IMG/VR virus record: IMGVR_UViG_3300010347_001588
Coordinates: 5,791-69,790 of that record
Strand: one strand, 5' to 3'
Origin: a virus
Taxonomy: Duplodnaviria > Caudoviricetes
Length of the DNA: 64,000 bases
Shown here in pieces: positions 1,016-31,361 of the stretch. The number at the start of each line of letters is the position of its first letter. The stretch's first letter is position 1. A program made the translations under genes and the position numbers. The notes beneath the pieces were generated by a model. That model was not told the DNA's origin, searched no databases, and saw nothing but the letters and a program-made list of their open reading frames with translations.

Positions 1016-1180
1016 TTAATCTTTTGGTAACCCAAAATCGTCGTCAAACTCGCCTGCTACAAACCGTTCTACCAATTCTAAAATTACTGTATGCATAGAA
1101 ATATCGTAAAACTTACATTTATTATTGAGTCTAAAATATAATGGACCTGGTATGAACAATGTCATCTGATGTATTTTCAT
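1016..1180 (-). CDS. Small ribbon-helix-helix-like DNA-binding protein (54 aa, below the ORF-track cutoff)
   Basis: Manual translation MKIHQMTLFIPGPLYFRLNNKCKFYDISMHTVILELVERFVAGEFDDDFGLPKD; beta-strand plus two-helix pattern; start overlaps the stop of the upstream gene. Confidence 0.55.
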   Translation of the reverse strand: MKIHQMTLFIPGPLYFRLNNKCKFYDISMHTVILELVERFVAGEFDDDFGLPKD

Positions 1181-1959: not shown

Positions 1960-3387
1960 TTACATATTTTCTGAATACTCATTAATTAGTTTTTGGTAAA
2001 GCTCAATCCGCTTTTTTGTACTATATCTTAATAAGTATTTACGTTGACCATTCGCATTAATATATGCTAAATTATCACATATATCAACTACTAATGGCGT
2101 CTTCTTATTTTCAGATACCCTACGTATCCTTCCAATCTTTTGAATTAGTTTCGGCATATTACTGGTCGGACACGTCAAAATTAATGCGGATAATCTCGGA
2201 TAATCTAACCCTTCCGATGCAATTTTGTCATTTGCACAAATACATTGAATTGTATCATCTTTTTGTATTTCGGCCCAATCGACCTTTTTTCTATTTTCCC
2301 CAATAAGTAATATGGAGTTATATTCTAATGAGGTGAGATACTCATGTAAATATTTTAGATGCTTAATCCGAGAACTTAATATCAATGGAACGTACCCTAA
2401 TTCAATTAGTTCTTTTGCTTTATTAAGAATTAGTAAGTTTCGTTCTCGATGTTCTACCAATTTACCTAAAAATTTCGTATAATCTAATACATCTTCACGC
2501 TGTTTACCTGTCCATCGACGGGTAATATCTAATTCCATCGGGATATTGGTATTAACAATTTCAAAAGTAAATGTCGTGATACGATTCTTGATTGAACTCG
2601 GTTTTATGGATTTTAACTTTTCTCCAAATATATCAAATAACAAAAAATGTTTTTCGTCTTTCCGTTCTACTGTTCCAGTAACTCCAACACGATATTTCAT
2701 AGGTAGATGGTTAAGTACTGTTAAATAACTATTAGCAGGTACATGATGAGCCTCATCTACAATCACCATCCCAAATTTGTCAAAGTATGAAGGATCCTCC
2801 TGCATCTTAGTATAGGCACTATTTATGATGGCCGTAACGATATCGCCATCTTCCTTTTTATCCCCATCTAATCGACCAAGCACATAATTCCCACCTACAC
2901 GCTTTTGAATTTCAGATTCCCATTGTGTTCGTAAGCGATGCTCGTGCATTAGAATTAAGGTGGATACTTTTAATTGCGTAATCAATCCAAGCATGGCTAT
3001 GGTTTTCCCTGCACCAGGAGGTGCCTCAATTAACCCACCTTCATGTTTGATTAAAATATCAATAATATCCGTTTGTTGTTTTTCTAATGTCGTATCTCGT
3101 AGAAAACAATCAATGGGATACCCGCATTCTCGGTTATCTACGACACGTAAACGAATATTATTAGCCTTCAGAAACTTACATAATTTCTGCAACCCACCAC
3201 GTGGTATAATAATCCTATTCCCAGAGAAATCATAATGTTTAATATATCTAGGTGTAGTATATACAGACAACTTTAACTTTTTCTTTGCATAATATTCAGG
3301 ATTAGAATAGGTGAATAAGTTGCAAATTTGGGTTATATGTTGTGACACCTCATTAGGATTAATATATAATTTATCTCGAAGAATCAT
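1960..3387 (-). CDS. Superfamily 2 DNA helicase (UvsW-like)
   Basis: Walker A APPGAGKT, DEAH box (VDEAHH), motif III GVTGT, motif VI QKIGRIRR. Confidence 0.9.
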   Translation of the reverse strand: MILRDKLYINPNEVSQHITQICNLFTYSNPEYYAKKKLKLSVYTTPRYIKHYDFSGNRIIIPRGGLQKLCKFLKANNIRLRVVDNRECGYPIDCFLRDTTLEKQQTDIIDILIKHEGGLIEAPPGAGKTIAMLGLITQLKVSTLILMHEHRLRTQWESEIQKRVGGNYVLGRLDGDKKEDGDIVTAIINSAYTKMQEDPSYFDKFGMVIVDEAHHVPANSYLTVLNHLPMKYRVGVTGTVERKDEKHFLLFDIFGEKLKSIKPSSIKNRITTFTFEIVNTNIPMELDITRRWTGKQREDVLDYTKFLGKLVEHRERNLLILNKAKELIELGYVPLILSSRIKHLKYLHEYLTSLEYNSILLIGENRKKVDWAEIQKDDTIQCICANDKIASEGLDYPRLSALILTCPTSNMPKLIQKIGRIRRVSENKKTPLVVDICDNLAYINANGQRKYLLRYSTKKRIELYQKLINEYSENM

Positions 3388-3629
3388 TTATGGATTCTCC
3401 CAAACTCGTTTAGTTTAGTTTGCTGAACCACATCGATATTTTTTTGCAAATAATCCCGCGTAAGTACTAGTGACCGTTCAACGGTTGCACTAGTACTTAG
3501 ACTTTCATGGAACATGTGAAACCAGAGAGCACGCACTTCACTTTTAAGCTTATGAAACTTCTCCCGGTCTCGGACGTATAAATTAATTCTATGTACCATA
3601 TAGTTAAATAATTGTGAACTGATCGTCAA
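3384..3629 (-). CDS. Hypothetical protein (81 aa)
   Basis: Overlaps both neighbours in an operon-like arrangement; no motif recognised. Confidence 0.5.
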   Translation of the reverse strand: MTISSQLFNYMVHRINLYVRDREKFHKLKSEVRALWFHMFHESLSTSATVERSLVLTRDYLQKNIDVVQQTKLNEFGRIHK

Positions 3630-4686
3630 TAATGATTACACTATCATCTAAGAATTGGGTCTTATCTCCCTTTTGTTTTTTGAGTTGATGACGATCTGCA
3701 TCCCTTTTTAGGTTATTAATCCGAGATTGTAATACACGCGGAAGTTTGAGCCCAGCATTTACTAATGTCACACGAATCGATTTTTCTAGCGTTGGATCGA
3801 TGAACATCCCAAGGCGTGATATAGCACTACCAAAACTGGTCTTTAATATTTCAAATACACGCTTGGAGAAATTTGTATATTCAATATTAGTATTCGGGAC
3901 ATCCACATTTACAATGTATGCCAAGGTATCTTTATAATCATACCCTTCAATCAGATATGGTTCTAATAGACGTTCTTTTATCATGACATCCTCAAGTTTG
4001 AAATCTGCTGGAGAAAAACTAACCTCTTTAATATCTAACAAACCATTCCCATATTGTAGAATACGAAGAATTTCTGCGCGGTCAATTGAACCAAGACCAC
4101 TATGGCTAAACTTGTTATCTCGGAGAATATCCAAAACTCCCATGAATCTGGACATAATAAAATAATTAATTTTCTTCCACCAATTTGAACTGACCCCGAT
4201 TTTACTAATGAGATATTCATTATCTGCCAATACTAACATGTTTAGTGGTACGTGACGTAAATCTCGTAGAGTACGCATCGCATTATCTGCTGTAAGCATT
4301 CCAAGCATCTTTGGTGGTAATGTTGCAATAACACCACATTTATACCCATTCTCAATCAAGAATTCAGATACCGGAACTACCATTCCACCACCAGTTCCAC
4401 CACCTAATCCAACTATAATAATGTGCATTTTATTCATTTCAATGATACTATTTATAAATCCTTGAAATTTATTATAATTCTTTTCTAAGATTTGTTTACC
4501 TACTAACGGACTCCCACCAGTACCAGTCGTTTCTAATTGTAAACAATTCTGCGGTTTAATTCTCATATCACGCATATCAACAACATCTGAGTTAATATAA
4601 TACGTTTGAAATCCTAATGAATCAAATTCTGATGCGATTCGACATCCACATTGACCAATACCAATAATTTTGAATGCGTTAATCAT
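3604..4686 (-). CDS. Tubulin/FtsZ-family GTPase (TubZ/PhuZ-like)
   Basis: IIGIGQCGCRIA (T1 loop), signature GLGGGTGGG, T7-loop-like GSIDRAEI, acidic/hydrophobic C-terminal tail DDSVIIIDDQFTII. Confidence 0.9.
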   Translation of the reverse strand: MINAFKIIGIGQCGCRIASEFDSLGFQTYYINSDVVDMRDMRIKPQNCLQLETTGTGGSPLVGKQILEKNYNKFQGFINSIIEMNKMHIIIVGLGGGTGGGMVVPVSEFLIENGYKCGVIATLPPKMLGMLTADNAMRTLRDLRHVPLNMLVLADNEYLISKIGVSSNWWKKINYFIMSRFMGVLDILRDNKFSHSGLGSIDRAEILRILQYGNGLLDIKEVSFSPADFKLEDVMIKERLLEPYLIEGYDYKDTLAYIVNVDVPNTNIEYTNFSKRVFEILKTSFGSAISRLGMFIDPTLEKSIRVTLVNAGLKLPRVLQSRINNLKRDADRHQLKKQKGDKTQFLDDSVIIIDDQFTII

Positions 4687-4696
4687 AATTTTTCTC

Positions 4697-5110
4697 CTAA
4701 TTTTTTAAATGTAATTCTAATGTTTTTAAATAATTCTTAGTAATTTTATCACATATGTCAATATAGGTACAATTAATGCACCGTTTAAGATGATCAGCTA
4801 CTATCTGACTCACTTCGTTTTTGTAATCCTCGAGAATCTTTTTACCTTTCTTTGTGAGCACACACCCAGATAATAATATACGTTCGGTTTCATATGGGAC
4901 ATACTTAGTGATATCCATATCAGCTATTTCATCTTCCGTTACTTCTTCTCGTAACCTAAAAATAGCGTCCGAATCAAAAGTGGATACTTCTCGAACTAAA
5001 GGGATTCCAAGTTTACCTAAACATTCTGGGAGATTAGATTCAGATAATTTTTTACTGATAAGATGGTCAATACTATCCCCAAACGCTTGTAGATTTATCT
5101 TTACATTCAT
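4697..5110 (-). CDS. Hypothetical protein, possible winged-helix and Cys-cluster protein upstream of the tubulin gene
   Basis: LTKKGKKIL resembles the wing-end motif of wHTH proteins; CINCTYIDIC Cys cluster. Confidence 0.5.
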   Translation of the reverse strand: MNVKINLQAFGDSIDHLISKKLSESNLPECLGKLGIPLVREVSTFDSDAIFRLREEVTEDEIADMDITKYVPYETERILLSGCVLTKKGKKILEDYKNEVSQIVADHLKRCINCTYIDICDKITKNYLKTLELHLKN

Positions 5111-5168
5111 CGTGACCTCCCCAATATATTGCTCTATTTAAATACCATTAGTTCATGTGATTAAAACT

Positions 5169-5174
5169 TGTCAA
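5169..5174 (-). promoter_or_regulatory. Sigma70-type -35 hexamer upstream of the ORF137-tubulin operon
   Basis: TTGACA on the minus strand in the intergenic gap; no clear -10 element. Confidence 0.35.
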
Positions 5175-5203
5175 CAAAAATTTGCGCATCTTTTAAGAAA
5201 ATG

Positions 5204-5431
5204 TTATTGGATTGTTACATTTAGTTCTTCATACAAATAAGAACCTTTAATTTTTTTATGAAAAAATGTCCCAATCGACTTTGCGTTTACGAAAAGCTCA
5301 TATACATCCTCCGGTACATTAAAATACCTAAAATACTTACCGTTTCTAAACATAATAAAAAGTGTTTGAGTAGGTTTATCATATCCAATTGCTTGGATTA
5401 GTGAAGTATGGACATTCATCATATATGCCAT
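5204..5431 (-). CDS. KTSC domain protein
   Basis: SLIQAIGYD..TQTLFIMFRNGKYFRYFNVPEDVYELFVNAKSIGTFFHKKIK matches the KTSC pattern. Confidence 0.88.
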   Translation of the reverse strand: MAYMMNVHTSLIQAIGYDKPTQTLFIMFRNGKYFRYFNVPEDVYELFVNAKSIGTFFHKKIKGSYLYEELNVTIQ

Positions 5432-6348
5432 TATACTATACTCTCCAATAGTGGTTTTTCATGATACGTTGATTCTAATAATTCTTCCAAAGAACATTCG
5501 GCCGCATCCTTGTGCGTTTTCGGCAAAAAGCATACCGATACGTGTGAGGTGTGTAATAATGGTAATGCACTTTTAAGTAGTTCTAAACCAGCTGTATCAT
5601 TATCTGGAACTAATACGATATGTTTATATCTTTTTAAAGTTTTGAGTTGTTCTGGCATTAATCGATTAGAAAGACATGCAACACATTGGTTTTTTGTATG
5701 AGAAAAGATAATTGCATCAAAGATACCCTCAGTAATATATAATTTTTTATCTATGTCTGGATATAGATCAAGTCCTGCTAAAAGATGACTACGTGAGACT
5801 GGAGCATACCGTTTACTAGAACCGTATACACTCCGCATAAAATAATTTTGCAATATACCATCTTGATAAATCGGTATCAAAATCCAATTAGTATATCTAC
5901 CTTGCGTGACTACGGATATATGCCAACGATTCACATCCTCATAAGTCACCCCACGACGTTGTAAGTATAAATTATTATGCGCCAACCGATGAGGTGGTAA
6001 TTCTAAATCAGAAGTCATAGTAGGCTCCACTAACGTACGTTTACGGGCACGTACTATTTTAGTAGCCATATCTTCTGAATCTGGAGTAATCGTATTATAT
6101 TTATGTTTATGAACTAATACAAATGCCTCAATACCATGAATGCCCACACTATCTAATAACGTATAAATATTACCATGAAATCCACATCCAAAGCAATGGA
6201 TCGCTCCCGTTCTCACATGAATATACATGGATGGGTTTGTTTCCACATGTTCGGGATTAATGCATTTAATGCACACATTCTCCTGTCCCGCTTTTTTATA
6301 GTGGATTCCAAGATTCTCTAAAAGTGTTGGCACATCATAGTTTGTCAT
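5431..6348 (-). CDS. dnaG: DNA primase (CHC2 zinc finger plus TOPRIM)
   Basis: KCINPEHVETNPSM...HCFGCG zinc finger; ITEGIFDA and VPDND TOPRIM motifs. Confidence 0.9.
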   Translation of the reverse strand: MTNYDVPTLLENLGIHYKKAGQENVCIKCINPEHVETNPSMYIHVRTGAIHCFGCGFHGNIYTLLDSVGIHGIEAFVLVHKHKYNTITPDSEDMATKIVRARKRTLVEPTMTSDLELPPHRLAHNNLYLQRRGVTYEDVNRWHISVVTQGRYTNWILIPIYQDGILQNYFMRSVYGSSKRYAPVSRSHLLAGLDLYPDIDKKLYITEGIFDAIIFSHTKNQCVACLSNRLMPEQLKTLKRYKHIVLVPDNDTAGLELLKSALPLLHTSHVSVCFLPKTHKDAAECSLEELLESTYHEKPLLESIV

Positions 6349-29570: not shown

Positions 29571-31361
29571 TTATGCTTCAATGATGCTGGTCACATCGTT
29601 CAAGAAACCTGAATGCTCACGTTCTAAGAAATATTCCCACTCAAACGCCACTTTGCATTTCGGGCATCGTATTACTTTTTTTCCTTGTTCGTTAAAAGGC
29701 TCTACCACTTCACCACACTCACAGGTATATGTATAATTACGCCAGTAGTACATTGACACACGCTCGGTTTCCGAAGTCTCAAGAATTGGAACAGGTACGA
29801 TACTTCGTTCACCGGGGATATATTTTGAATAGTCTATTTCTTCAGGCATCATCATTGGTTGTTGTGCACCTTGATATGAGGTGTTTTTAAATTTCCCGTT
29901 ATTTTTGTGTACATACAACGCAAAGTTAGTAAAATATTCTAACGTTGCATCGGATTGAGCAATTACCCCAGATTTAATGCGCGTTTCAAATTTTTCGACC
30001 ATATCTAAGAATTTATATATCCCCAATTTCTCTAACAGCATCTCAATATTCTTTTTCCTACGCTCATTGACGGACTCGTAGCGAGCATTTTTATTCGTTC
30101 GAACCCGCAATGTTTTGTAGTAAAATTTATATACTCTATCAGCTACAGATGCATCGTGAAATTTGTCAAGACAAAATTGTTTAAAATTGTGTTTTAAATT
30201 CGCTTGTATCGCTGTTCGCATAAAAAACTCCTTCACAAAAGATGGTGTGTAATACCCGTAAATCCCACGTTCGCGTTTTTTTATTAATTTGTCTACATTT
30301 TCTTTTACTACATCGGCGCCATATGTCTCAACTAAAAATCGCACAAAGTCATATAACTGTTGTACAGATTCCCAATCACGTAAGCTAAGAAAGAAATCTA
30401 AGATATATGCCCCATCAATCTGGTTAAATGTGTTCAGGCAATAGTCTCTCAATTGCTCTAAAAGACGCTTAGTGAGATCGTCCTCCGTCGCATTTTCTGT
30501 TGTATTTTCATAAGTAAACATTTCTTCAGAAAAATTGTTCAATTCCTGGTACTTGACAGCCGGTATTTTATTTTCAATAAACTCTAAATTCTCCTTACTC
30601 TTATATGCTTTTCCTTTAGCTTCTTTTGGAGGTTTCTCCAGAACAGAATTTTCCTTCCGAAAATGCGAAGCATTTTCGGAAGAGAAATTCCCAACCGGGG
30701 GTTTTTTATCTTCATTAATCTTTGATTCTATAGTCTCTGTATTAATAGAAATTACCGATTGGTTAGATGTAGAAATTACCAATTGGTGAGATGGGGTATT
30801 ATTGTAAACTTTTTTAGTCTTATTTTCTATATTATTAAAATGTACTTCTAAATCGTAATCGTCTATATTATCCATACTATATACTTTATCATCATGTTCG
30901 TTTATATTACTACTAGATACTTTTTTGTCGTTTTTGTTTATATTATTTATGACTGTGTTGATGGCGTGAGTAAGGATATCAAAGTTTAGGCTAATGTAGT
31001 GCGCACGTTCAAATTGGTGAAATGGTGATTTTCCGACCATTATGGTGACTAATTTTTTTGCTTGTAAAATTTTGATAGCGCGGTCGTATTGTCTTTCGGT
31101 GATGCGTATTTCGTCCCACCAGTCGCTACGTTGTTTGACGATCCATCGCCTGTGGTGGCGTTGCACTTTTGCGCGTGATGCCTTTGAGCCGTCTTTTTGT
31201 GGAAGAAACCAGTAGACGATTTGTGAGAGTAGTAATGCAGCGTATAAATCCTGTGTGATGTCGAAGTAGACTTTTTTGAAGTCGATAGTGTCGTTGGTTG
31301 TTTTTTCCCAAGCGACAAATGTGTTGAAATGTGGTGAGTGTGTTGATACAGTTTGTCTCAT
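29571..31361 (-). CDS. Replication initiator / replisome organizer (N-terminal wHTH, low-complexity linker, C-terminal zinc ribbon)
   Basis: AALLLSQIVYWF...DWWDEIRITERQYDRAIKIL...LV typical of phage initiators; CECG...CPKC at the end. Confidence 0.75.
   Translation of the reverse strand: MRQTVSTHSPHFNTFVAWEKTTNDTIDFKKVYFDITQDLYAALLLSQIVYWFLPQKDGSKASRAKVQRHHRRWIVKQRSDWWDEIRITERQYDRAIKILQAKKLVTIMVGKSPFHQFERAHYISLNFDILTHAINTVINNINKNDKKVSSSNINEHDDKVYSMDNIDDYDLEVHFNNIENKTKKVYNNTPSHQLVISTSNQSVISINTETIESKINEDKKPPVGNFSSENASHFRKENSVLEKPPKEAKGKAYKSKENLEFIENKIPAVKYQELNNFSEEMFTYENTTENATEDDLTKRLLEQLRDYCLNTFNQIDGAYILDFFLSLRDWESVQQLYDFVRFLVETYGADVVKENVDKLIKKRERGIYGYYTPSFVKEFFMRTAIQANLKHNFKQFCLDKFHDASVADRVYKFYYKTLRVRTNKNARYESVNERRKKNIEMLLEKLGIYKFLDMVEKFETRIKSGVIAQSDATLEYFTNFALYVHKNNGKFKNTSYQGAQQPMMMPEEIDYSKYIPGERSIVPVPILETSETERVSMYYWRNYTYTCECGEVVEPFNEQGKKVIRCPKCKVAFEWEYFLEREHSGFLNDVTSIIEA
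30746..30793 (+). repeat. 24-bp tandem repeat (2 copies, 2 mismatches) inside the initiator gene; candidate iteron
   Basis: tagaaattaccgattggttagatg / tagaaattaccaattggtgagatg, followed by a very AT-rich tract (about 30800-30950). Confidence 0.7.

What the first reader, a model, noticed from the sequence alone, without database searches (positions are those of the whole stretch)
3604..5174. Tubulin/FtsZ-family GTPase with an upstream wHTH-like partner in a phage lacking nucleus-type machinery
Seen: intact GGGTGGG, a T7-loop-like SIDRAE and an acidic/hydrophobic tail. A 137-aa ORF with a wHTH-like LTKKG motif and a Cys cluster lies just upstream, behind a TTGACA, and an 81-aa ORF lies downstream. 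Known: phage tubulins are either PhuZ (spindle of nucleus-forming jumbo phages, which encode their own multisubunit RNAPs) or TubZ (type III partition, with wHTH TubR encoded upstream). This window instead has sigma factors for host RNAP and a PolA. Inferred: this may be a new tubulin lineage for genome segregation or centring, or for interfering with host FtsZ. I saw no tubC-like iterons in 5110-5204.
Basis: partly seen in the sequence, partly recalled or inferred. Interest (0 to 1): 0.75.

Follow-up and report, generated by a model that had tools for sequence, protein, structure and literature searches.

The report
New jumbo-phage tubulin gene cassette
An uncultured large phage carries an intact tubulin/FtsZ-type filament GTPase from a conserved, uncharacterised clade, flanked by two small conserved partner genes unlike those of the two known phage tubulin systems, which suggests a third way for phages to use a cytoskeleton.

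Summary
Window 3604-4686 (-) encodes an intact 360-aa tubulin/FtsZ-superfamily GTPase (Pfam Tubulin 51 bits, cut-off 33). Its T1 (GQCG), T4 (GGGTGGG) and T7 (GSIDxxE) motifs are invariant across relatives. The AF2 model (pLDDT 90) matches TubZ best (Z 35.5), then CetZ and FtsZ (Z 28-31); PhuZ matches poorly.

The protein belongs to a tight clade of at least 78 clusters at 37-57% identity. All come from uncultured phage contigs up to 253 kb, and none is in cultured phages, PHROGs or 185k species genomes.

The window is only about 29% of a roughly 240-kb myovirus. Relatives 49-76% complete lack chimallin, a phiKZ-type RNAP subunit and an integrase.

The gene sits in a conserved, tightly packed cassette inside the replication module. 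A 137-aa protein lies upstream in 29 of 35 loci and an 80-aa protein downstream in 29 of 32. The upstream partner has four invariant cysteines and a confident fold with no PDB match (best Z 4.0). TubR-type winged-helix similarity was not detected. The downstream partner shows a ribbon-helix-helix-like pattern, which is unproven. No iterons lie nearby.

Most likely this is a dynamic filament that positions replicating phage DNA, using new accessory proteins. Its deep phylogenetic placement is unresolved. I rate it a new variant of a known kind, of moderate to high interest.

The parts
3604..4686 (-). Tubulin/FtsZ-superfamily GTPase, 360 aa. It has a TubZ-like fold, a long C-terminal helix (residues 317-343) with a basic NNLKRD..R..KK.K stretch, and a disordered acidic/hydrophobic tail (344-360).
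   Evidence: Pfam PF00091 at 51.4 bits. AF2 pLDDT 90.2. TubZ 4ei7 Z 35.5 over 334 residues; CetZ 31.5; FtsZ 28-30. G11 Q12 G14, G95-G99, D202 and E205 are invariant in 32 homologues.
4697..5110 (-). Upstream partner P, 137 aa. It has four invariant cysteines (C30, C111, C114, C120; LPxCxG ... CxxCx5C), so it is a probable structural metal (Zn) site, and its fold has no known match.
   Evidence: It lies directly upstream of the tubulin gene (gap -7 to +44 nt) in 29 of 35 testable non-redundant loci. Alignment A2. AF2 pLDDT 93.8. No Foldseek hit with E below 0.9 and best VIA Z 4.0. No Pfam or PDB sequence hit.
3384..3599 (-). Downstream partner D, 71 aa from ATG 3599 (the ORF is open back to TTG 3629, 81 aa). 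It shows a strand-helix-helix pattern resembling a ribbon-helix-helix DNA binder.
   Evidence: Present downstream of the tubulin gene in 29 of 32 testable loci. Alignment A3 with conserved IYVxD..F..L...I..LWY..yGe.LS. hhalign against the neighbouring true RHH family aligns in the RHH register but is not significant (probability 2.4%). No Pfam or PDB hit. Start site.
5111..5203 (-). 93-nt intergenic leader of the cassette. It holds TTGACA (5174-5169) and a GGAGG Shine-Dalgarno before the P start, and it has no iterons.
   Evidence: Sequence read. No promoter was called there. No repeat family. Upstream 9-mer repeats are no more frequent than in shuffles in 20 loci.

Best explanation
The gene encodes a functional, polymerising tubulin-superfamily GTPase of TubZ-like architecture. 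It defines a separate, uncharacterised clade found so far only in uncultured myoviruses of about 210-250 kb that rely on host RNA polymerase plus phage sigma factors. It is expressed with the replication genes as a tightly packed cassette: P (Cys4, new fold), then tubulin, then an optional sigma-r4/HTH-like protein, then D (RHH-like). Shown: the fold, intact nucleotide-binding loops T1-T6, conserved T7 acidic residues that complete the GTPase site of the next subunit, clade conservation, and cassette synteny. Inferred: GTP-dependent head-to-tail assembly into dynamic filaments that position, spread or segregate replicating phage genomes or the replication factory in a large infected cell that has no chimallin shell. 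Also inferred: the small DNA-binding-type proteins and/or P couple or regulate the filament, and the conserved acidic-hydrophobic C-terminal tip acts either as a self-assembly 'knuckle' (as in PhuZ) or as an adaptor-docking peptide (as in TubZ and FtsZ).
For: Family and fold. T1, T4 and T7 motifs and the tail are invariant in 32 sequences at 37-57% identity, which indicates purifying selection on catalysis and assembly. The clade has 78 clusters on contigs up to 253 kb. The context RecA, loader, primase, [KTSC], [RHH], P, tubulin, [V], D, helicase, sigma-like gene, DnaB recurs in loci L002-L017. Co-occurrence is 29 of 35 for P and 29 of 32 for D. Gene junctions suggest translational coupling. 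Chimallin and the phiKZ RNAP subunit are absent in relatives up to 76% complete, with a positive control. Sigma factors and PolA are present.
Against: There is no functional or expression data. No DNA site (iterons) was found near the cassette. P and D may simply be replication or transcription genes that sit beside the tubulin in a densely packed syntenic module. Six of 35 loci lack P and 3 of 32 lack D, yet their tubulins keep the tail. D's RHH nature is not statistically established. No complete genome was examined, so a shell protein could be encoded elsewhere. No multimer prediction could be run.
Confidence: 0.5

Rival explanations
1. This is a type III (TubZRC-like) partition system that maintains the phage as a low-copy plasmid prophage or in pseudolysogeny, as in Clostridium phage c-st. 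A non-homologous adaptor (D and/or the 55-aa RHH and/or P) would replace TubR, and the centromere would lie elsewhere in the genome.
For: TubZ is the best structural match, including the long C-terminal helix. The phage carries a full theta-type replication set: initiator, DnaB, loader and DnaG. RHH proteins are the centromere binders of type Ib and type II partition systems (established knowledge). An HTH protein follows the tubulin in 14 of 32 loci, as TubY follows TubZ in c-st. No integrase was found, which fits an extrachromosomal state. ParB_N proteins occur in two relatives, and IMG/VR labels one relative 'provirus'.
Against: No wHTH TubR was detected. No iteron array lies upstream in the window or in 20 relatives. 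No member of the clade was found in 185,579 species-representative prokaryotic genomes. The gene is embedded among lytic replication genes rather than next to a repressor or origin module. An exclusive clade with c-st TubZ costs 52.6 lnL units (p-AU 0.057).
Confidence: 0.2
2. It is a host-takeover factor. The phage tubulin would co-assemble with or cap host FtsZ to block division, or remodel cell shape as CetZ does, enlarging the cell for a jumbo-phage burst.
For: Profile searches align the full length to FtsZ as well as to TubZ (75.8 against 75.5 bits). CetZ is the second-best structural class (Z 31.5). Phage inhibitors of FtsZ are known (established knowledge).
Against: Identity to FtsZ is only about 20%, and the score is 75 bits against the FtsZ equivalog cut-off of 295, so conserved longitudinal interfaces for co-polymerisation are unlikely. 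There is no FtsZ_C domain and no FtsA/ZipA-type C-terminal peptide. Linkage to replication genes and DNA-binding-type small proteins is conserved. The host is unknown.
Confidence: 0.1
3. It is a divergent PhuZ in a cryptic nucleus-forming lineage. The shell protein and other nucleus genes would lie in the unsequenced 24-70% of these genomes, or would be too divergent to detect.
For: The AU test cannot reject a sister relation to phiKZ PhuZ (p 0.51). The acidic C-terminal tail is reminiscent of PhuZ. The genomes are jumbo-sized. All records examined are incomplete.
Against: PhuZ family models do not hit: phrog_4733 and PF22334 TubZ_C_2 give nothing, while the phiKZ control is positive. The structure is much closer to TubZ, CetZ and FtsZ than to PhuZ models (TM 0.50-0.55 against 0.78). 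Chimallin and the RNAP beta subunit are absent from four records at 29-76% completeness. Phage sigma factors imply use of host RNAP. The PhuZ branch is very long (1.88), so its placement carries little information.
Confidence: 0.05

Closest known systems
TubZ of type III plasmid/prophage partition systems (pBtoxis, pXO1 RepX, Clostridium phage c-st TubZRC/TubY)
   Same: It is the best structural match (4ei7: Z 35.5, 334 residues, rmsd 3.5; Bt TubZ Z 33.5; c-st TubZ Z 30.2), and the match includes the long C-terminal helix followed by a flexible tail. The gene sits in an operon with small putative DNA-binding proteins. In 14 of 32 loci an HTH-type protein lies just downstream, recalling TubY. 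It is encoded by a mobile element.
   Different: Identity is only 16-21%, and sequence alignment to TubZ covers the N-domain only. The upstream gene is a Cys4 protein of unmatched fold with no detectable wHTH TubR similarity. There are no tubC-like iterons. The tail is acidic/hydrophobic, not the basic TubR-binding tail. The gene lies inside a lytic-type replication module of a roughly 240-kb myovirus.
PhuZ of nucleus-forming jumbo phages (Chimalliviridae)
   Same: It is a jumbo-phage-encoded tubulin with an acidic C-terminal tail. A role in positioning phage DNA is plausible. A sister relation cannot be rejected statistically (p-AU 0.51).
   Different: It fails the PhuZ PHROG and the Pfam TubZ_C_2 model. 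Structural similarity is low (TM about 0.5). No chimallin or phiKZ-type RNAP was found in relatives up to 76% complete. These phages encode sigma factors and PolA.
FtsZ / archaeal CetZ
   Same: The full-length profile aligns to M. jannaschii FtsZ (75.8 bits). The T3 (GxGxxP), T4 and T7 (xxDxxD/E) loops are of FtsZ type. CetZ reaches Z 30-31.5.
   Different: It scores 75 bits against the FtsZ equivalog cut-off of 295. There is no FtsZ_C Pfam hit, and the T1 motif is GQCG, as in eukaryotic beta-tubulin, instead of GGGG(G/N). There is no membrane-tether peptide. The context is phage, not dcw.
Uncharacterised FtsZ/tubulin-like genes of other uncultured or large phages (e.g. BFVD A0A6J5RW92 'FtsZ' of an uncultured Caudovirales phage; the phage G tubulin-like GTPase, PMC12484599)
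   Same: These are phage-borne tubulin homologues outside the PhuZ and TubZ paradigms with no assigned function. A0A6J5RW92 is the best viral structural match (E 3e-24, TM 0.77).
   Different: Identity is only 23%, and lengths differ (452 aa). tblastn against 50,697 deposited phage genomes gives no hit at E 1e-3.

Membership tests
Tubulin/FtsZ superfamily | GTPase-domain family model matched above its curated threshold | tested here: met
   PF00091 scores 51.4 bits against a cut-off of 33, and 52.1 bits in the genome search.
Tubulin/FtsZ superfamily | Signature loops: T1 glycine-rich loop, T4 GGGTG(S/G)G, and T7 acidic residues that activate GTP hydrolysis in the neighbouring subunit | tested here: met
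   GxGQCGxR, GGGTG and GxGSIDxxE (D202, E205) are invariant in 32 sequences.
Tubulin/FtsZ superfamily | Two-domain fold: Rossmann-type GTPase domain, core helix H7, and the C-terminal activation domain | tested here: met
   AF2 pLDDT 90.2 and pTM 0.87. More than 700 tubulin-family chains score Z of 8 or more; the top is TubZ at Z 35.5.
Tubulin/FtsZ superfamily | GTP-dependent polymerisation into protofilaments | not testable with these tools
   This needs biochemistry or microscopy.
TubZRC type III partition system | TubZ-type architecture with a long C-terminal helix H11 and a flexible tail | tested here: met
   4ei7 aligns model residues 1-337 at Z 35.5. The model has helix 317-343 and a disordered 344-360.
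TubZRC type III partition system | Winged-helix TubR adaptor encoded immediately upstream | tested here: inconclusive
   The upstream 137-aa protein has pLDDT 93.8, a best PDB Z of 4.0 and a MarR/wHTH Z of 2.2. hhalign against c-st and Bt TubR gives probability below 1%. No similarity was detected, but absence from the hit lists does not exclude a very divergent relation.
TubZRC type III partition system | tubC centromere: an array of direct repeats upstream of the operon | tested here: not met
   There is no repeat family in 3300-5500 and no tandem array near the cassette. Upstream 9-mer repeats are no more frequent than in shuffles in 20 loci. A centromere elsewhere in the genome is not excluded.
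TubZRC type III partition system | Phylogenetic membership in the TubZ clade | tested here: inconclusive
   In the ML tree the family and its unnamed sisters lie apart from both TubZ references. Forcing an exclusive clade with c-st TubZ costs 52.6 lnL units, p-AU 0.057.
PhuZ (phage spindle tubulin) | Match to PhuZ family models (PHROG 4733; Pfam TubZ_C_2 PF22334) | tested here: not met
   There are no PHROG hits at E of 0.01 or below, and PF22334 does not hit at E of 1 or below. The phiKZ PhuZ control hits both.
PhuZ (phage spindle tubulin) | Co-occurrence with chimallin and virion/non-virion multisubunit RNAPs | tested here: inconclusive
   phrog_4795, PF25677 and phrog_2987 are absent from the window's record (29% complete) and from relatives 49, 65 and 76% complete, with the phiKZ control positive. 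No complete genome was available.
PhuZ (phage spindle tubulin) | Phylogenetic membership | tested here: inconclusive
   Only one PhuZ reference was used, on a very long branch (1.88). The sister relation is not rejected, p-AU 0.51.
FtsZ | Equivalog model TIGR00065 above cut-off, and an FtsZ_C domain | tested here: not met
   It scores 75.2 bits against a cut-off of 295.2. There is no FtsZ_C hit.
Ribbon-helix-helix DNA-binding proteins (for the downstream 71/81-aa protein) | RHH family model or profile match | tested here: inconclusive
   There is no Pfam hit. hhalign against the neighbouring RHH family (NikA-like at 27.6 bits in L015) aligns in register, but probability is only 2.4%. The Atlas gives weak TraM and ParB_C leads below 0.9.

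The most novel reading that the evidence does not exclude
This would be a third class of phage tubulin system. A TubZ-fold filament in shell-less jumbo phages would be coupled to a previously unseen Cys4 (zinc) adaptor fold and a small RHH-like DNA binder, and would organise the phage replication factory or distribute replicated genomes. That would make it a cytoskeleton-based genome-positioning machine distinct from both the PhuZ spindle and TubZRC partition.
Probability: 0.35. Interest if true: 0.75.

Novelty: new variant of a known kind. Interest (0 to 1): 0.62.

Why it matters
The phage tubulins with an assigned role fall into two paradigms: the PhuZ spindle of nucleus-forming phages and TubZRC partition. 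Comparative work has tied jumbo-phage tubulin to multisubunit RNAPs and the nucleus (PMC7824862), and a 2026 review discusses only PhuZ (PMC13282480). The clade described here is widespread and strongly conserved (at least 78 clusters at 90% identity) and occurs in large environmental myoviruses that use host RNAP and show no shell gene. Its conserved partner genes are new, and one has no detectable structural relative. If the proteins work together, they offer a tractable three-protein system for asking how a shell-less jumbo phage organises replication in space. They would also add a new adaptor fold for tubulin-family filaments.

Tried and rejected
1. tblastn of the tubulin against 50,697 deposited phages and megablast of 20 kb of the window gave no match. 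tblastn against plasmids gave one marginal 65-residue hit in a C. botulinum plasmid.

2. A single-protein scan of IMG/VR found nothing. The alignment-based scan worked.

3. The partner P gave nothing in any search: Pfam, PHROG, PDB sequence profile, Foldseek, VIA wide, VIA second look and the ESM Atlas. The only sequence leads were insignificant: the DnaI N-terminal zinc domain at E 1.8 and a 17-19-residue stretch around LTKKG aligned to the TubR wing. Foldseek's weak list was dominated by MarR proteins, but with TM 0.2-0.29 and Z 2.2, so I rejected that as evidence for a wHTH.

4. Word-based homologue searches for P found only 1 and then 6 proteins. They therefore could not show whether P occurs without the tubulin.

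5. The deep phylogeny is unresolved. The basal split has 33% support, and AU tests reject neither a PhuZ sister relation nor, narrowly, a c-st TubZ sister relation. No archaeal FtsZ, CetZ or eukaryotic tubulin references could be fetched for the tree.

6. The contexts of the nearest outgroups (P0081, P0084, P0088) sit on contigs of 1.4-3.6 kb, too short to be informative. P0081 does show a primase-like gene, a 56-aa gene, the tubulin and a 197-aa gene, an order that resembles the family's.

7. The genome-contig scan found no clade member, only 22-23% identical proteins in Chloroflexota MAGs.

Full report
WHAT IS THERE

The minus-strand ORF 3604-4686 encodes a 360-aa protein. It matches Pfam Tubulin (PF00091) at 51.4 bits against a cut-off of 33. 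It matches no PHROG family, and tblastn against 50,697 deposited phage genomes finds nothing.

The window is bases 5791-69790 of a 69,790-bp IMG/VR record. CheckV rates that record 29% complete, so the whole genome is about 240 kb. The window therefore shows less than a third of a jumbo phage. The phage is a myovirus, with portal, major head and tail-sheath PHROG hits. It carries:
- a UDG-exo-PolA fusion;
- RecA;
- an IstB/DnaC-like loader;
- DnaG and DnaB;
- two sigma-like genes, one with Sigma70_r2 at 59 bits.

THE PROTEIN

A search of 5.8 billion clustered proteins returned 78 clusters at 37-57% identity. Almost all are 356-366 aa, and they lie on contigs up to 252,876 bp. An exhaustive phmmer search of 1.8 billion representatives showed a tight family: four other full-length representatives score 249-355 bits. 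A gap follows, then 156 bits and lower.

In an alignment of 32 members (A1) the following are invariant or nearly so:
- T1, GxGQCGxR;
- T3-like, (T/S)G(T/S)GxSP;
- T4, GGGTG;
- the T6 DN motif;
- T7, GxGSIDxxE (D202 and E205 of the window protein).

These invariant columns are followed by a conserved basic helix, NNLKRDxxRxxxKKxK, and a terminal acidic/hydrophobic DxDFx(I/L).

The AF2 model is confident (pLDDT 90.2, pTM 0.87). It has a long helix at 317-343 and a disordered tail at 344-360.

| Reference | Measure | Result |
|---|---|---|
| B. cereus TubZ 4ei7 | Foldseek; VIA-align | E 4.5e-23, TM 0.78; Z 35.5 over 334 residues |
| B. thuringiensis TubZ | VIA-align | Z 33.5 |
| CetZ | VIA-align | Z 30-31.5 |
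| c-st TubZ | VIA-align | Z 30.2 |
| FtsZ | VIA-align | Z 27-30 |
| PhuZ models (BFVD) | TM-score | 0.50-0.55 |
| Uncultured-phage 'FtsZ' A0A6J5RW92 | TM-score, identity | 0.77, 23% (best viral match) |
| M. jannaschii FtsZ | Family profile, full length | 75.8 bits |
| pXO1 RepX/TubZ | Family profile, N-domain only | 75.5 bits |
| CetZ | Family profile | 71.7 bits |

NCBIfam's FtsZ equivalog scores 75 bits against a cut-off of 295. Neither FtsZ_C nor the phage TubZ_C_2 domain is hit, while phiKZ PhuZ used as a control hits TubZ_C_2 and phrog_4733.

PHYLOGENY

I built an IQ-TREE tree (LG+G4) of 96 rows. It held 14 family members, 75 distant representatives, three other viral tubulins, and phiKZ PhuZ, c-st TubZ, pBtoxis TubZ and E. 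coli FtsZ, all fetched from annotated records.
- The family is monophyletic (SH-aLRT 96).
- It has unnamed metagenomic sisters (97).
- All four references fall on the other side of the tree.

The basal split is weak (33), and the AU tests were as follows:
- A sister relation to the long-branched phiKZ PhuZ is not rejected (p 0.51).
- An exclusive clade with c-st TubZ is only borderline disfavoured (delta lnL 52.6, p 0.057).

The honest statement is that this is a distinct clade whose deep placement is unresolved. It fails the family models of FtsZ and PhuZ, and it resembles TubZ most in structure.

GENE CONTEXT

In long relatives (L002-L017) the order is: RecA, x, DnaC-like loader, [DnaB], primase, [KTSC], [55-aa RHH], 135-145-aa P, TUBULIN, [116-217-aa V], about 75-85-aa D, ResIII helicase, about 245-aa sigma-like protein, about 55-aa protein, DnaB.

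I used HMMs built iteratively on 61 loci, 48 of them non-redundant:

| Gene | Position | Present in testable loci |
|---|---|---|
| P | Directly upstream, gap -7 to +44 nt | 29 of 35 |
| D | Downstream | 29 of 32 |
| 55-aa RHH (NikA-like 27.6 bits, RHH_1 weak) | Upstream of P | 16 of 35 |
| V (weak sigma-70 region-4/HTH hits) | Between tubulin and D | 14 of 32 |

The window has P and D only. The P stop codon overlaps a GGAG 10 nt before the tubulin ATG. The most likely D start, ATG 3599, lies 4 nt after the tubulin TAA.

THE PARTNERS

P (A2: 30 sequences, 23-39% identity) has invariant L22, P28, C30, G32, C111, C114 and C120. That gives LPxCxG plus CxxCx5C, a probable four-cysteine metal site.

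P's AF2 model is very confident (pLDDT 93.8), yet it matches nothing:
- Foldseek gives no hit with E below 0.9.
- An all-against-48,161-chain VIA search gives a best Z of 4.0.
- MarR/wHTH chains reach Z 2.2.
- hhalign against c-st and B. thuringiensis TubR gives probability below 1%.
- PDB sequence profiles and the ESM Atlas give nothing.

So no winged-helix or TubR relationship could be detected for P, although a very divergent one is not excluded.

D (A3) shows a strand-helix-helix pattern, IYVxD..F..L...I..LWY..YGexLS.s.il.kaL. hhalign puts it in register with the neighbouring RHH family, but without significance (probability 2.4%). Calling it RHH remains an inference.

CENTROMERE AND PROMOTER

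No direct-repeat family or tandem array lies in or near the cassette. In the 260 nt upstream of the cassette in 20 loci, the best 9-mer recurs no more often than in shuffles. TTGACA at 5174-5169 is real, but it has no consensus -10 and was not called as a promoter.

NUCLEUS MACHINERY AND LIFESTYLE

- Chimallin models (phrog_4795, PF25677) and the phiKZ RNAP beta model (phrog_2987) hit phiKZ. They hit none of the window's record or three relatives that are 49, 65 and 76% complete.
- No tyrosine integrase was found. ParB_N proteins occur in two relatives.
- No clade member occurs in 185,579 species-representative genomes. Only 22-23% identical proteins appear, in Chloroflexota MAGs.

This supports a phage without nucleus-type machinery, though without a closed genome it is not proof. 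It gives no positive sign of lysogeny.

LITERATURE

- Iyer et al. 2021 (PMC7824862) recognise two jumbo-phage tubulin types and correlate tubulin with multisubunit RNAP.
- The 2026 review of jumbo phages (PMC13282480) discusses only PhuZ.
- Phage G carries an uncharacterised tubulin-like GTPase (PMC12484599).

I found no description of this clade or of its partner genes.

INTERPRETATION

Shown:
- an intact, selected tubulin-family GTPase of TubZ-like fold;
- a distinct clade;
- a conserved three- to five-gene cassette inside the replication module;
- a new-fold Cys4 neighbour;
- no chimallin or msRNAP in partial genomes.

Inferred: the protein undergoes GTP-driven polymerisation and has a role in positioning or distributing replicating phage DNA, with P and D as accessory factors (confidence about 0.5).

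Rivals:
- c-st-like plasmid-prophage partition with non-homologous adaptors (0.2);
- interference with host division or shape (0.1);
- a cryptic nucleus-former (0.05).

Tubulins in loci that lack P or D keep the acidic tail. The tail is therefore more likely a self-assembly element, or a docking site for another conserved factor, than a P-specific handle.

VERDICT

The finding is real, and it is a new variant of a known kind: a third, uncharacterised phage tubulin lineage with novel accessory genes. Interest is moderate to high for phage cell biology. Function is untested.

Noticed in passing
window 1016-1180 (-): A 54-aa ORF follows the sigma-like gene. It has an RHH-like strand-helix-helix pattern and an acidic tail, GEFDDDFGLPKD. 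Homologues sit at the same position in relatives (tails DGDFDTDFG, DGEFDDIFD, NGDFDEDFS). The (D/E)xDF tip resembles the tubulin's own DxDFxI tail, so the two may dock on a common partner. It has no Pfam hit.
   Followed up: partly
L002:14481-17516, L017:647-3181, L005:9259-11715: Relatives carry inteins or homing-endonuclease insertions (Hom_end_hint, LAGLIDADG) in DnaB, in the MJ0330_N-type protein and probably in the ResIII helicase (818 aa against about 480 aa). The window's copies appear to be intein-free.
   Followed up: no
L003:1-2522: The 239-kb relative encodes GTP cyclohydrolase I, QueF-like and DUF366 proteins next to the replication module. This suggests 7-deazaguanine DNA modification in this phage clade.
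   Followed up: no
window 30746-30946: Two tandem repeat arrays (24 nt x 2.0 copies and 36 nt x 2.4 copies) lie inside the replication-initiator-like gene (29571-31361, phrog_9773 O-like), where plus-strand GC skew changes sign. They are candidate origin iterons, and also a candidate distant binding site if the tubulin system needs a DNA handle.
   Followed up: no
L075-L083 (Chloroflexota/Dehalococcoidia MAG contigs): These cellular MAGs encode distant (22-23% identity) tubulin-family proteins that share the unusual GQCG T1 motif with the phage clade. They could be an uncharacterised cellular relative or an unrecognised mobile element.
   Followed up: no
IMG/VR record behind L007 (178,984 bp; the same sample's JGI contig is 239,416 bp, L003): IMG/VR classes this relative as 'provirus'. 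This is presumably because about 60 kb of the contig was trimmed as host-like. It could be an artefact of host-like replication or metabolic genes rather than evidence of integration.
   Followed up: no
window 5204-5431 (-): A KTSC-domain protein (76.5 bits) is conserved between the primase and the tubulin cassette in many relatives. Its function is unknown.
   Followed up: no
P0018 (577 aa, 82,670-bp contig): One homologue is reported as a 577-aa protein combining Tubulin with polysaccharide-biosynthesis Pfam domains (PF01943, PF13440). This is most likely a gene-call fusion, but it was not inspected.
   Followed up: no
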